Positions 37,201-40,200 of a stretch of DNA of 64,000 nucleotides are shown here, piece after piece. The stretch spans positions 4,898,001-4,962,000 of the forward strand of contig OX597821.1 in the NCBI GenBank assembly GCA_951406725.2, given 5' to 3'. The position numbers are program-made. The stretch comes from Octopus vulgaris (lineage: Eukaryota). The stretch's first letter is position 1, and every line of letters starts with the position of its first letter.

Positions 37201-40200
37201 ACGCGGCAAACCAACACTACTCAAAAAAATTATGAATGGATTCTTTAATAAAACTACCATGATAAATTATTATATGTATTTATGAGCTTTAGCTCATCTT
37301 GGCAGTTTCAACAAACAATTCGTAGCAATCCACGTCTATTCCCGATGTCTGCCACTTTACTACATTATTCCACTCCCAATCCTAAGCAACGCTAGCCCAC
37401 CACCCGGTTACAATTCCCAATTCCATTTATTCCATTCACAATTTCAATGACGTTCGCTTCCATAGTGCTACGTATGAGCCTCAATATATGCACCGGTGAT
37501 TCGCTTCCACATCCGTGCGGATGGGTGAGAGTATGCATTGAGTGTAGTGATGGGGCTCCCTTTGCTATGCACGTTTGTACCTAAAACCATAAATGATAAA
37601 ACCTCCCTTTACTAAACCCTATAACATACTTATATAGCAATCCCTTTAACCTATACATTCACACACAAATACACACACGTAAACCACACACCCATAACAA
37701 ATACAAACACCCACCCCACTCACACACACCCACAAGTACATATAAGCCTCAACATATACACCAAACAAATTCACGTTACCAAGGAACCTAACATATGTAT
37801 AAAAAGTATACCCGCTCTGAAACGAACATCTTTTAAAATTATGAATGGAGAAATGGAAAAATGGAATTAAAAATAATATTCACGTGGTTAAACGAACACC
37901 ACTCAAAAATTATGAATGAAACAATGCAACAAAACAACAAACATCGCAAATAGACAAACTACTACGAATTCTTTAACAAAACTACCATGATAAACCAAAA
38001 CTCACAAAAACATATAATGATAAAATCTCCCTTTGCTAAACTCTATAACAAACCTATATAGCAATCCCCCTAACCTAAACATTCACACACAAATACACAC
38101 ACGTAAACCACAGACCCACGACTTATACAAATACCCACCTCACTCACACATACCTATACTAACGTATAAACCTCAATATACACCAAAAACCCACTCCTCC
38201 CCACACAGACAAATTAACACATACATCCCCAAACCTATATAACAAACCCATATACACATTCACACACAAACACACATACGCAAAACACACACACACAACA
38301 TATACATATACTCCCTCACATATACGCATATACATACTCACTAAACTCGATATATACAACAATATTTACACACCCACACTCATACAGATAAACAAACTAT
38401 ACCACCAAAATACGCACACACTCACACACAATCTCACATACATAAACACTCCAAAGAAAAACAACATTATTACACATAAAACGATATATAAAATACATCG
38501 TAATTAACCAGAATATCAAAAATAACAATATGACATAAGGAGAAATAATATACATACTTACAAGTCAGTTTCAAATTATGAAGTGAAATTAAATTCTAAG
38601 CCGTTAAAAAAACCAAACCAAAATTACGTTACCATAGGAACATAACTTATGTATAAAAAGAATACGCGCCATGGAAGCAAACGTCATTTAAAATTATGAA
38701 TGGAGAAATAGAATAAATGGAACTAAAAACTATATTCACGCGGCAAACCAACACTACTCAAAAAAATTATGAATGGATTCTTTAATAAAACTACCATGAT
38801 AAATTATTATATGTATTTATGAGCTCTAGCTCATCGTAGCAGTTTCAATAAACAACTCGCAGCAATCCACGTCTATTCCCGACGTCTGCCATTTCACTAC
38901 ACTATTCCACTCCCAATCTCAAGCAACGCTAGCCCACCACCCGGTTACAATTCCCAATTCCACCTATTCCATTCACAATTTCAACGACGTTCGCCTCCAC
39001 AGTGCCACGCATGAGCCTCAACATATGCACCGGTGATTCGCTTCCACATCCGTGTGGATGGGTAAGAGTATGCATTGAGTGTAGTGATGGGGCTCCCTTT
39101 GCTATGCACGTTTGTACCTGTGTGGTAGTCTCCATGTGTATATTCGCGCACGGGTATAAATGCGGGGGGTATTCGCGCACGGCATGTGCGTGTACCCCTC
39201 ACATGTATGTGTGCATGCTTGTTGGGCTCGATATGTGCAACGGTGTGTTCGCGCCCGCATTCATGCGGATGGGTGAATTGCACAATTAAAATACGCACAC
39301 GTGTGTGTGTGCGTTTTTTGGTTGTGTAGTTTGTTTATCTGGGTGTGAGTGGGTGTGAGCGTATTGTTGTGGATGTCGAGTCTGATACGTATGTATATGA
39401 GTGTGTTTGGGGGGTTGTACGTATGTGTTGTGTGTGTGTGTTCTGCGCATGCGCGCCTGTGTATGGATGAATATATGGGGATTGCTATGTGGGTGTAATT
39501 GGGTATGGAGGGGGAGTTTTGTCATTGTATGGGTGTGGGTTTCATTTGTGATGGTGGTTTGTTGGTGATTTGTGGTATGTTCTGTATATTTGGGTTAGTT
39601 ATGTATTGTTCTTGTGTGTGTAATTGTATACATGTATTATTGGTGTGAGTGGGATTGCGCCCATTTTTGGGGATGTATGTGTTTATCTGTCCGTGTGGGG
39701 CGGGAGTGGTCCCTTGGTGCATATGTTGAGGCTCATACGTAATTTCAGGTACGCGTGAATGAAGTGGGCACTTGTATTTGTTATGGGTGTGTGTACTTTA
39801 TTATAACAGACAATACCCAAATAAAATCTGTCAATTCAACATACCAAATAAAAAACAAATAAAAAACAAAGGGATCGTAAACATTCACACATACATACAA
39901 AACTCAATATATACACCACTAAATAACACCCATCATCCATATAAATATATCCTCCAATATACATATAACAAATGCATAATAAAAATACATAATAAAATAA
40001 AATAAAAATAAAAAATATATAATTAAAGAAAATAAAAAAATCTAATATAAATTATTAAAGTTTTAACGTACCATAAACTGTTATATTAATATACATTAAA
40101 AATGAACTAATTAAAACAAAGAAATATCAACAAAGACTAACTATAAATAAAGCCTAGACTACATAACCAAATAAATATAATTATCTAAACTAAATTAAAC

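What the first reader, a model, noticed from the sequence alone, without database searches (positions are those of the whole stretch)
37421..39027. One-directional A-to-G cluster between the two tandem copies in the PLE: apparent ADAR editing fixed in DNA
Seen: the two 1.53-kb copies are near-identical over long stretches (e.g. from 36496 vs from 38033). However, my hand alignment of 37421-37490 with 38958-39027 shows 8 differences in 70 nt, all T (copy 1) vs C (copy 2), which is A-to-G on the element's sense (minus) strand. The 5' neighbours of those As on the RNA strand are A,A,C,A,U,U,U,U and never G. Only one site is a CpG in copy 2. The cluster lies in and next to the inverted arm predicted to be double-stranded, and T/C differences continue through 37280-37400. 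Established: ADAR deaminates A to I in dsRNA, disfavours a 5' G, and RT reads I as G; coleoid cephalopods have very extensive A-to-I editing. Inference: hyper-edited PLE RNA was reverse-transcribed and integrated, so RNA editing acts as a heritable mutator of this element.
Basis: partly seen in the sequence, partly recalled or inferred. Interest (0 to 1): 0.92.

Follow-up and report, generated by a model that had tools for sequence, protein, structure and literature searches.

The report
One-way A-to-G cluster in retroelement hairpin
Two tandem copies inside a Penelope-like retroelement differ by a real, dense, one-directional run of A-to-G changes in one arm of a long RNA hairpin, which looks like ADAR RNA editing copied back into DNA but is not proven to be that.

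Summary
Copy 1 (36049-37582) and copy 2 (37582-39119) are 96.8% identical. They have 36 substitutions: 19 T(copy 1)/C(copy 2), 5 C/T and 2 purine transitions.

Paralogous segments in the window polarise 9 of 9 testable sites as T ancestral, so copy 2 is derived. That is A-to-G on the minus strand, which is also the strand of the retroelement ORF. No changed A has a 5' G (0 of 15, against 19 of 48 unchanged; p=0.003). The cluster fills one arm of a ~180-bp-stem hairpin that folds well only as minus-strand RNA (-147 vs -78 kcal/mol).

Three results count against simple hairpin hyper-editing:
- The partner arm has 0 of 50 A's changed (p=1e-4).
- Changed sites are no more often paired than unchanged ones.
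- No RNA-to-DNA step is shown; both copies lie head to tail inside one insertion.

ADAR editing captured by reverse transcription is the best reading (about 0.45). It is known in retroviruses. Other genomic copies and RNA-seq could not be examined.

The parts
36049..37582 (-). Tandem copy 1 of the 1.53-kb unit. It is the less changed copy in the hairpin arm.
   Evidence: 96.76% identical to copy 2.
37582..39119 (-). Tandem copy 2. It carries the derived A-to-G (RNA sense) burst.
   Evidence: polarity.
35352..36059 (-). Older partial copy (about 88% identity) of unit positions 36270-37004. It lacks the hairpin and serves as outgroup outside the cluster.
37105..37290 (-). Hairpin arm A of copy 1 (the 3' arm in RNA sense), a member of the 'b' subrepeat family. 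Arm A of copy 2 is 38642-38827, and 37069-37288 is identical in the two copies.
37290..37475 (-). Hairpin arm B of copy 1 (the 5' arm in RNA sense), an inverted 'b' subrepeat. The stem has 119 predicted pairs, 29 of them G.U or U.G.
38826..39022 (-). The cluster in copy 2, corresponding to 37289-37485 in copy 1. It holds 15 T>C (+ strand), which is A>G in RNA sense, running from the hairpin apex to just past the stem base.
39211..39276 (+). Direct-orientation paralog of 37465-37528, used as outgroup. It has T at 37469, 37473 and 37485, C at 37518 and G at 37527.
   Evidence: 0 of 200 shuffles reach the alignment score.
39716..39741 (+). Inverted 26-nt match (25 of 26) to 37469-37494. In copy 2's neighbourhood it can pair with 39006-39031. 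It has T at two cluster sites and C at 37485.
40235..42007 (-). Open frame of 590 codons, a 5'-truncated Penelope-like RT (LYRDD motif) with a C-terminal GIY-YIG-type endonuclease region. It contains an N-rich insert of about 100 aa.
34802..34883 (.). Left inverted terminus of the insertion unit, 96% complementary to 41996-42077. A (TA)n run lies at 34696-34731.
41996..42077 (.). Right inverted terminus. It abuts the truncated ORF start and the (TA)n(TG)n run at 42068-42168.

Best explanation
The two 1.53-kb units lie in the long 3' region of a 5'-truncated, minus-strand Penelope-like retroelement insertion (about 34802-42077). Each unit contains an inverted pair of 'b' subrepeats. As minus-strand RNA this pair folds into a hairpin with a stem of about 180 bp. 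In the lineage of copy 2, about a quarter of the adenosines of the hairpin's 5' arm (15 of 63) became G in one burst, and none of them had a 5' G.

The most likely cause is promiscuous A-to-I deamination of the element's RNA by an ADAR enzyme. Inosine was then read as G by a reverse transcriptase, and the cDNA became genomic DNA, either during retrotransposition or tandem formation or as a cDNA-templated patch.

Shown here: the cluster, its strand, its polarity, its 5' context and the hairpin. Inferred: the enzyme, the RNA intermediate, and why only one arm carries the changes. For the one-arm pattern I suggest either later homogenisation of arm A between the copies or a template switch at the hairpin apex.
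For: 1. Purity and density. 15 T>C among 20 differences in 37289-37485, which is 15 of 63 T's, against 0 of 55 A's on the same strand.
2. Polarity. b-family paralogs, D3-motif paralogs and the direct paralog 39211-39276 show T, or not-C, at 37383, 37426, 37427, 37448, 37458, 37463, 37469, 37473 and 37485, which is 9 of 9 testable sites. 37485 is mixed: T in 5 and C in 3 of the paralog motifs. Six sites nearer the loop could not be polarised.
3. 5' neighbour. U 7, A 6, C 2, G 0 among changed sites, against G 19 of 48 among unchanged A's (p=0.0028). This matches the pan-metazoan ADAR preference (passages read in PMC9989829, PMC5625713, PMC8586724).
4. Three features point to the same strand: the ORF is on the minus strand, the hairpin is stable only as minus RNA (-147.2 vs -77.9 kcal/mol; z=-8.9), and the changes are A>G on minus. 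At 8 of the 15 sites they turn predicted A-U pairs of the copy-1 fold into G.U (6 of them in the long stem).
5. The tract runs from the hairpin apex (37289; apex pair 37292-37287) to the stem base. There are 0 T>C among the 30 T's of 37486-37582.
6. Outside the cluster both copies carry a few derived changes of mixed type, so the cluster is a separate event.
7. Precedent. A-to-G hyper-edited RAV-1 and avian leukosis virus (passage in PMC8586724). Octopus has the strongest hyper-editing signal of the animals surveyed (passage in PMC5625713).
Against: 1. The partner arm is untouched. There are 0 changes among 50 A's in arm A, of which 34 are predicted paired and 46 lack a 5' G. At arm B's rate this has probability about 5e-9. 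ADAR acting on an intramolecular hairpin should edit both arms.
2. Within arm B, changed sites are not enriched at paired positions (8 of 15 against 29 of 48, p=0.77).
3. The downstream A preference reported for invertebrates is absent (3 of 15 changed against 19 of 48 unchanged).
4. No sign that copy 2 was made through RNA. The copies are head to tail inside one insertion with complex subrepeats, which looks like DNA-level duplication.
5. This is a single locus. There is no RNA-seq, there are no other family copies, and the assembly was not checked.
6. The older layer is unrooted, and its 5' G depletion is only a trend (1 of 18 against 5 of 19, p=0.18). In that layer arm B differs from the b family by 19 C-for-T out of 32 mismatches.
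Confidence: 0.45

Rival explanations
1. A DNA-level event at the hairpin. The inverted repeat extruded or was cut at its tip, one arm was resected, and it was refilled by an error-prone polymerase of the Pol eta type. That polymerase makes A>G at WA motifs on the synthesised strand. No RNA is involved.
For: - The tract is one arm only, from the apex (37289) to the stem base. This model predicts that pattern; simple ADAR hairpin editing does not.
- 13 of 15 changed A's have a 5' A or U, and none has G. That is the WA motif.
- The copies look like DNA-level tandem duplicates.
- The WA motif and Pol eta error rates are recalled. The papers listed were not read.
Against: - 15 of 63 sites (24%), or 15 of 44 without a 5' G, is several-fold above the T.dGTP misinsertion rates I recall for Pol eta.
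- The purity is higher than the mixed spectrum I recall for that enzyme. T>C makes up 15 of 17 changes, not counting the 3 C/T sites that may be T>C in copy 1.
- The model does not explain why the changed strand is the element's sense strand.
- It does not explain why arm B already differs from the b family by 19 C-for-T of 32 mismatches.
Confidence: 0.2
2. An assembly or sequencing artefact. The two 'copies' may be diverged haplotypes, or collapsed or expanded repeat units placed in tandem. Or one copy was polished with reads that do not belong to it, transcript-derived reads included.
For: Tandem and inverted PLE structures are said to cause assembly problems (passage in PMC8557442). No read data were available, so the locus is unverified.
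Against: - The window has no N runs.
- The copies also differ by ordinary mixed substitutions and indels over 1.2 kb.
- Generic errors would not give 15 same-direction transitions with 5' G avoidance in 200 nt.
- The other repeat pairs in the window that involve neither tandem copy show no comparable one-directional cluster, apart from an A>G excess (17) in a TA/TG-microsatellite alignment.
Confidence: 0.1
3. Reverse polarity, that is cytosine deamination. Copy 2 keeps the ancestral C's. Copy 1 lost them by C>T on the + strand, through APOBEC-type editing of first-strand cDNA, 5mC decay or a RIP-like process on duplicated DNA.
For: - For a minus-sense retroelement, the + strand is the first-strand cDNA, so C>T there is the classical APOBEC direction.
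- The 3' neighbours of the C's are A 7, T 5, G 2, C 1 in copy 2 (contexts). This mirrors a CpA>CpT>CpG>CpC order, which I recall for RIP.
- Context alone cannot tell this apart from ADAR, because it is the complement of U>A>C>G.
Against: - 9 of 9 polarisable sites have T (or not-C) in paralogs.
- Arm-to-arm conversion in copy 1 cannot explain that. Seven other differences from arm A (mismatches and two indels) persist between the 'converted' sites.
- Only 2 of the 15 sites are CpG.
- RIP would hit both copies and both strands.
Confidence: 0.05
4. Ordinary drift filtered by selection for a functional minus-strand RNA hairpin. Only A-U to G.U changes are tolerated.
For: - 8 of the 15 changes turn predicted A-U pairs of the copy-1 fold into G.U (6 of them in the long stem).
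- Folding energy is unchanged (-183.7 vs -183.1 kcal/mol).
- The stem is rich in G.U: 29 of 119 pairs.
Against: - 7 of the 15 changes are at positions unpaired in the fold of copy 1, yet they are still all A>G.
- Drift would put changes in both directions in both copies and in both arms.
- The rest of the unit diverged about 1.4% with a mixed spectrum, against about 10% in the arm.
Confidence: 0.05

Closest known systems
ADAR A-to-G hypermutation of retroviral genomes captured in proviral DNA (RAV-1, avian leukosis virus). Seen as a passage in PMC8586724; the original papers were not read.
   Same: Dense one-directional A>G on the RNA-sense strand of a reverse-transcribing element, in a region able to form dsRNA, with 5' G avoidance, and present in DNA.
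   Different: Here it is an endogenous Penelope-like element in an animal genome. The comparison is between two tandem copies inside one insertion. Only one arm of the duplex is changed. No RNA intermediate is demonstrated.
APOBEC G-to-A clusters between genomic retroelement copies (Carmi et al. 2011, recalled from a reference list; Knisbacher and Levanon 2015, PMC4866542, method passages read).
   Same: The same logic of detection: pairwise copies with clustered, unidirectional, strand-biased transitions, polarised with a third sequence. The same idea applies, that a host deaminase leaves heritable marks in retroelements.
   Different: The enzyme class and the direction differ. Here A is ancestral and G derived on the sense strand, so it is not cytidine deamination.
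RNA-level hyper-editing of repeat-derived hairpins in octopus and other metazoans (PMC5625713 and PMC9989829, passages read).
   Same: The substrate type (young inverted repeats forming long hairpins), the 5' U/A preference and the G avoidance.
   Different: Those are RNA-DNA differences that are not inherited. Here the G's are in the genome sequence itself. The invertebrate downstream A preference is not seen (3 of 15).
Pol eta WA-motif A>G mutagenesis in somatic hypermutation and clustered mutation (recalled; search listing only).
   Same: Strand-coordinated A>G with a 5' A or T.
   Different: The density and purity here are higher than I recall for Pol eta. There is also a link to the sense strand of a retroelement.

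Membership tests
ADAR hyper-editing footprint fixed in DNA | Clustered, single-strand, one-directional A>G between related sequences | tested here: met
   15 T>C (+), which is A>G (-), in 197 nt. 0 of 55 + strand A's changed. 0 of 20000 permutations cluster as tightly.
ADAR hyper-editing footprint fixed in DNA | A is ancestral and G is derived | tested here: met
   9 of 9 testable sites by paralogs in the window; 37485 is mixed (5 T, 3 C). 6 of the 15 sites are untestable. No true family consensus was available.
ADAR hyper-editing footprint fixed in DNA | Depletion of G at the 5' neighbour, with U/A favoured | tested here: met
   0 of 15 changed against 19 of 48 unchanged, p=0.0028. U 7, A 6, C 2.
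ADAR hyper-editing footprint fixed in DNA | 3' neighbour preference (A in invertebrates, per PMC5625713) | tested here: not met
   3' A is 3 of 15 changed against 19 of 48 unchanged. 3' G is 3 of 15 against 10 of 48. The sample is small and this preference is weak.
ADAR hyper-editing footprint fixed in DNA | The changed region can form long dsRNA on the edited strand | tested here: met
   Hairpin with 119 predicted pairs; z=-8.9; minus RNA -147.2 against plus -77.9 kcal/mol.
ADAR hyper-editing footprint fixed in DNA | Both strands or arms of the duplex carry A>G, and changed A's lie in paired positions | tested here: not met
   Arm A has 0 of 50 A's changed (p=1e-4). Paired positions are 8 of 15 against 29 of 48, p=0.77.
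ADAR hyper-editing footprint fixed in DNA | The edited copy arose through reverse transcription (own insertion hallmarks or cDNA origin) | tested here: inconclusive
   The copies lie inside a retroelement whose family forms tandems on insertion (PMC8557442). But they are head to tail within one unit, with no separate ends.
ADAR hyper-editing footprint fixed in DNA | A-to-G hyper-edited transcripts at the same sites | not testable with these tools
   No RNA-seq access.
Penelope-like element, C-terminal endonuclease type | PLE-type reverse transcriptase | tested here: met
   ORF residues 1-233 align at 45% with P0001 and 34% with P0006 over the RT part, with DIDNYY and LYRDD motifs. The motif naming is recalled. 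Pfam gave no direct hit on the ORF.
Penelope-like element, C-terminal endonuclease type | GIY-YIG endonuclease C-terminal to the RT | tested here: met
   ORF 336-553 aligns (32%, E=6e-21) with P0006 478-672. That span includes P0006's Pfam GIY-YIG match at 599-635 (22.9 bits, cut-off 22.6).
Penelope-like element, C-terminal endonuclease type | 5' truncation, an inverted 5'-truncated copy forming flanking inverted repeats, and microsatellite target sites | tested here: met
   The ORF starts at residue 246 of P0001. The 82-nt inverted termini are 96% complementary. (TA)n runs lie on both sides. This matches the description in PMC8557442.
Penelope-like element, C-terminal endonuclease type | Hammerhead ribozyme motif in the pseudo-LTR | tested here: not met
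   No Rfam family at gathering score in the window, and none at E<=5 in 34500-42500. There is no CTGANGA between 35000 and 42000.
APOBEC-type G>A retroelement hypermutation | G (sense) ancestral and A derived; C>T on first-strand cDNA | tested here: not met
   Polarity is the opposite at 9 of 9 testable sites.
Pol eta WA-motif mutagenesis | A>G at 5'-WA on one strand in a repair-sized tract | tested here: inconclusive
   13 of 15 are WA, in a one-arm tract. The density (24%) and purity exceed what I recall for the enzyme.

The most novel reading that the evidence does not exclude
In this animal, apparently an octopus relative, a Penelope-like element's 3' hairpin is hyper-edited by ADAR again and again, and the edits are written back into the germline by the element's own reverse transcriptase.

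On this reading the hairpin stable only as minus-strand RNA and rich in G.U is a fossil record of earlier rounds. Arm B carries C at 18 of 37 sites where the b family has T. The copy-2 burst is the latest round. RNA editing would then be a heritable, strand-specific mutator that progressively melts retroelement dsRNA.
Probability: 0.3. Interest if true: 0.75.

Novelty: new member of a known kind. Interest (0 to 1): 0.55.

Why it matters
Coleoid cephalopods edit RNA more than any other animals studied. Whether that editing feeds back on the genome is an open question. Retroelements are the obvious route, because edited RNA that is reverse transcribed becomes DNA.

A clean, polarised A>G cluster with ADAR context, in the sense strand of a retroelement hairpin, is the kind of footprint that route predicts. 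It turns the question into a countable genome-wide test: sense-strand A>G clusters against the three other transition clusters across all copies of repeat families.

If the one-arm restriction instead reflects a DNA-level hairpin process, that would be a different result, a mutational hazard of inverted repeats. It would also be a caution against reading every A>G cluster as ADAR.

Tried and rejected
- Rfam over the whole window (gathering score) and over 34500-42500 (E<=5) gave no hammerhead or other credible family. There were only sub-threshold miRNA-like hits.
- The CTGANGA scan gave no hit inside the units.
- ARAGORN over 33000-43000 found no tRNA, so there is no evidence for a tRNA-derived SINE.
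- Pfam on the ORF itself found 0 families. Identity had to come through homologues.
- The PDB sequence search gave nothing meaningful: one hit at E=0.16 in the low-complexity part.
- The site-level pairing test showed no enrichment.
- A search for a copy-2-specific partner of arm B in 39031-40234 was not conclusive. Arm A remains the best partner (-138 kcal/mol against -117 and -115). Only 39716-39741 pairs with 39006-39031.
- The 5' context of the older layer shows only a trend (p=0.18).
- Arm A's private changes against its paralogs are A>G 5 of 17, no clearer than in a paralog without a partner.
- The inverted partial copy 39301-39793 against the direct copies gave mixed results. One segment fits the minus-strand A>G prediction (A/G class 13-15 against G/A 0-1). 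The other shows the opposite class (T/C 14). These are CA-rich, low-complexity alignments.
- GC-biased gene conversion is rejected: 0 A>G on the + strand.
- Arm-to-arm conversion or template switching that perfects copy 1 is rejected: the interleaved mismatches are retained.
- Literature searches found no paper in the held library reporting ADAR edits fixed in cephalopod or PLE DNA. A review I recall on DNA and RNA editing of retrotransposons (Knisbacher and Levanon, Ann NY Acad Sci 2015) was not found there, so priority in mammals could not be checked.
The only open contig collection is prokaryotic and was not searched. RNA-seq, reads and paper supplements were also out of reach.
- No complex or structure prediction was run. 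None bears on the question.
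Full report
**What is at the coordinates.** The region holds a head-to-tail duplication. 36049-37582 (copy 1) aligns with 37582-39119 (copy 2) at 96.76% over 1543 columns. An older partial copy (35352-36059, about 88%) matches unit positions 36270-37004. 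The unit is itself built of subrepeats: a 183-nt 'D3' family and a roughly 165-nt 'b' family. The window has no N.

A global alignment of the two copies gives 36 substitutions and 14 indel columns. The substitutions are T(copy 1)/C(copy 2) 19, C/T 5, G/A 2, A/G 0 and 10 transversions. So are their RNA-strand 5' neighbours and the single CpG. In 37289-37485 there are 15 T>C, 3 C>T, 1 T>G and 1 G>A.

**Is it more than chance?** Yes, by several tests.
- Fifteen of the 19 T>C lie in one 200-nt span; 0 of 20000 permutations over the unit's T positions reach that.
- In the region, 15 of 63 T's changed to C while 0 of 55 A's changed to G on the same strand (p=3.7e-5).
- T/C against C/T is 15 of 18 (p=0.0075).
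- The rest of the unit differs by about 1.4%. Using the older copy as outgroup, both copies carry a few derived changes of mixed type there.
- Twenty other repeat pairs of at least 200 nt in the window were listed. The 18 that involve neither tandem copy show mixed spectra with many transversions. One of them has a large one-directional excess (18294-18576 vs 42065-42359, A>G 17), but it lies in TA/TG-microsatellite sequence where the alignment register is ambiguous. The two comparisons of the older partial copy with copies 1 and 2 show a milder T>C excess (15 against 5-6 C>T).

**Context.** The open frame 40235-42007 on the minus strand (590 codons) has no direct Pfam hit. It finds six relatives, including a named Octopus sinensis protein at 43% identity. 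It aligns with P0001 from that protein's residue 246 onward, so it is 5'-truncated. It aligns with P0006 over both the RT part and the C-terminal part. That C-terminal part carries P0006's Pfam GIY-YIG match.

The frame is bounded on its 5' side by an 82-nt sequence (41996-42077) that is 96% complementary to 34802-34883. (TA)n runs lie at 42068-42098 and 34696-34731. 5' truncation, an inverted truncated copy forming flanking inverted repeats, complex tandems and a microsatellite bias are all features described for Penelope-like elements (passages in PMC8557442). No hammerhead motif was found.

The tandem units lie inside the insertion unit, downstream of the ORF. The host cannot be named from this window. 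The closest named relative is from an octopus, but at only 43% identity.

**The hairpin.** As minus-strand RNA, 37060-37582 folds at -183.7 kcal/mol (shuffles -128.3 +/- 6.2, z=-8.9). Copy 2 folds at -183.1 (z=-7.5). The core is one long stem between arm A (37105-37290) and arm B (37290-37475) with 119 predicted pairs, 29 of them G.U or U.G. The same DNA read as plus-strand RNA folds at -77.9 against -147.2 kcal/mol.

At DNA level, arm B differs from the reverse complement of arm A mainly by C-for-T (18) and A-for-G (9). The opposite classes are rare (2 and 4). These are the mismatches that remain wobble pairs only on the minus strand. Every difference in the cluster lies in arm B or within 10 nt of its end. 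The first (37289) sits in the apical loop. Downstream, 0 of the 30 T's in 37486-37582 changed.

**Polarity.** Arm B is an inverted member of the b family, so arm A and three other b copies serve as outgroups.
- They have T at 37383, 37426, 37427 and 37458.
- They have T or A at 37448, and T or G at 37463. None has C at either site.
- The motif at 37469-37494 recurs in the D3 copies, in an inverted 26-mer (39716-39741) and in a direct paralog (39211-39276). All have T at 37469 and 37473. At 37485, five have T and three have C.

Thus 9 of 9 testable sites point to T as ancestral and copy 2 as derived. Six sites nearer the loop are untestable.

At 37382 the outgroups show that copy 1 is the derived C, so at least one 'C/T' difference is also a T>C, in the other copy. 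37518 is a C>T at a CpG in copy 2, and 37527 is a G>A in copy 2.

Conversion of copy 1's arm B by arm A cannot produce this pattern. Seven other differences from arm A, including two indels, persist between the supposedly converted sites.

**Signature.** On the minus strand the 15 changes are A>G. Their 5' neighbours are U 7, A 6, C 2, G 0. Of the 48 unchanged A's in the region, 19 have a 5' G (p=0.0028). This is the ADAR preference reported for all metazoans (passages in PMC9989829, PMC5625713, PMC8586724). The 3' neighbour shows nothing.

At 8 of the 15 sites the fold of copy 1 predicts an A-U pair, which the change turns into G.U. Six of these eight pairs are in the long arm A-arm B stem and two are local. 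The density is 24% of all A's, or 34% of those without a 5' G, which is in the range of promiscuous editing of long dsRNA (recalled).

**What does not fit.**
- Arm A, the other half of the duplex, is identical in the two copies. None of its 50 A's changed, although 34 are predicted paired and 46 lack a 5' G. At arm B's rate this has probability about 5e-9.
- Within arm B, changed A's are no more often paired than unchanged ones (8 of 15 against 29 of 48, p=0.77).
- Nothing shows an RNA origin of copy 2. The junctions are plain, and the array looks like DNA-level duplication of a subrepeat-rich segment.

**Possible rescues (inference only).** The first is later gene conversion between the copies that re-homogenised arm A. 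The longest identical run, 220 nt at 37069-37288, is exactly arm A and abuts the cluster. The second is a reverse-transcriptase template switch at the hairpin apex. The third is a short cDNA-templated repair patch.

**Rivals.**
- *DNA-level hairpin process.* A tip cut, resection of one arm and error-prone refilling explains the one-arm tract. If the polymerase is Pol eta-like, it also explains the WA context (13 of 15). The density and purity are higher than I recall for that enzyme, and the model does not explain the link to the sense strand.
- *Reverse-polarity cytidine deamination (APOBEC, 5mC, RIP-like).* The neighbour context cannot separate this from ADAR, because the two preferences are complements. 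The polarity test disfavours it.
- *Structure-constrained drift.* This does not explain a one-copy, one-direction burst that includes 7 unpaired sites.
- *Artefact.* This cannot be excluded without reads.

**Older layer.** Arm B, in the state shared by both copies, differs from the b-family consensus at 32 positions, and 19 of them are C-for-T. Eighteen of the 37 family-T sites are C in arm B. If the direction is the same as in the recent burst, arm B has been through an earlier and even heavier round. However, this branch is unrooted, and its 5' G depletion is only a trend (1 of 18 against 5 of 19, p=0.18). Arm A's private changes are A>G in 5 of 17, which is not distinctive. The inverted partial copy at 39301-39793 gives mixed signals.

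**Comparison with known systems.** ADAR-hyper-edited retroviral genomes recovered as DNA (RAV-1, avian leukosis virus) are the closest precedent (passage in PMC8586724). Pairwise detection of deaminase clusters in genomic retroelements is established for APOBEC (PMC4866542, method passages). Hyper-editing of repeat hairpins is strongest in octopus among the animals surveyed (PMC5625713).

I found no paper in the held library on ADAR edits fixed in cephalopod or PLE DNA. A review I recall that covers RNA editing of mammalian retrotransposons could not be checked. I therefore rate this as a possible new member of a known kind, not a new kind.

**Verdict.**
The mutational signature and polarity are what ADAR plus reverse transcription predicts. 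The untouched partner arm, the lack of site-level pairing enrichment and the missing evidence for an RNA intermediate keep my confidence near 0.45.
- Left open: other genomic copies of the family, transcript data, read-level validation and paper supplements were all out of reach.

Noticed in passing
window 40235-42007 (-), ORF residues about 234-335: The PLE open frame is intact for 590 codons despite 5' truncation. Between the RT and endonuclease parts it carries an asparagine-rich low-complexity insert of about 100 aa that is absent from the relative P0006. The ORF region has about 20% GC, against 33-38% around it.
   Followed up: partly
window 34802-34883 and 41996-42077; 34696-34790; 42068-42168: Inverted termini of 82 nt (96% complementary) bound the whole unit of about 7.3 kb. 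On the left they are separated from a (TA)n run by three copies of a 21-nt repeat, which could be a PLE 'tail'. On the right they abut (TA)n(TG)n directly.
   Followed up: partly
window 39006-39031 with 39716-39741: A 26-nt inverted match can extend the duplex near copy 2. In the ancestral state its only mismatch is an A opposite C at the 37485-equivalent site, and this is one of the changed A's. This is an anecdotal fit to ADAR's liking for A-C mismatches (recalled).
   Followed up: partly
window 37283-37296 and 38820-38833: A short perfect palindrome sits at the hairpin apex. The first difference of the cluster (37289) lies in its 2-nt loop. Rfam gives only sub-threshold miRNA-like hits here, on both strands.
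   Followed up: no
window 19800-21500 and 7080-7690: Very long AT-rich trinucleotide-type low-complexity tracts (GC 0.17 in 20001-22000) give spurious ORFs of up to 418 codons.
   Followed up: no
window 33093-33325, 50003-50232, 54888-55126, 61632-61867; also 33151-33618: An interspersed repeat of about 225 nt is present in at least four places at 84-90% identity, in both orientations. Locally it forms a three-copy array with a 181-184-nt period. It was not classified.
   Followed up: no
window 13181-13616, 26640-27045, 59158-59563, 42113-42371, 18294-18576: A second interspersed repeat family (79-90% identity). One copy abuts the right flank of the PLE unit, next to the (TG)n run.
   Followed up: no
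window 43872-44084 and 44472-44686: A direct repeat pair at 95.8% identity, 600 nt apart, with 3 T>C, 1 A>G and 3 transversions. There are too few differences to judge.
   Followed up: no
whole window: CTGANGA occurs 35 times against 19.9 +/- 4.3 expected; 0 of 100 shuffles reach 35. None lies in the tandem units. This is unexplained.
   Followed up: no
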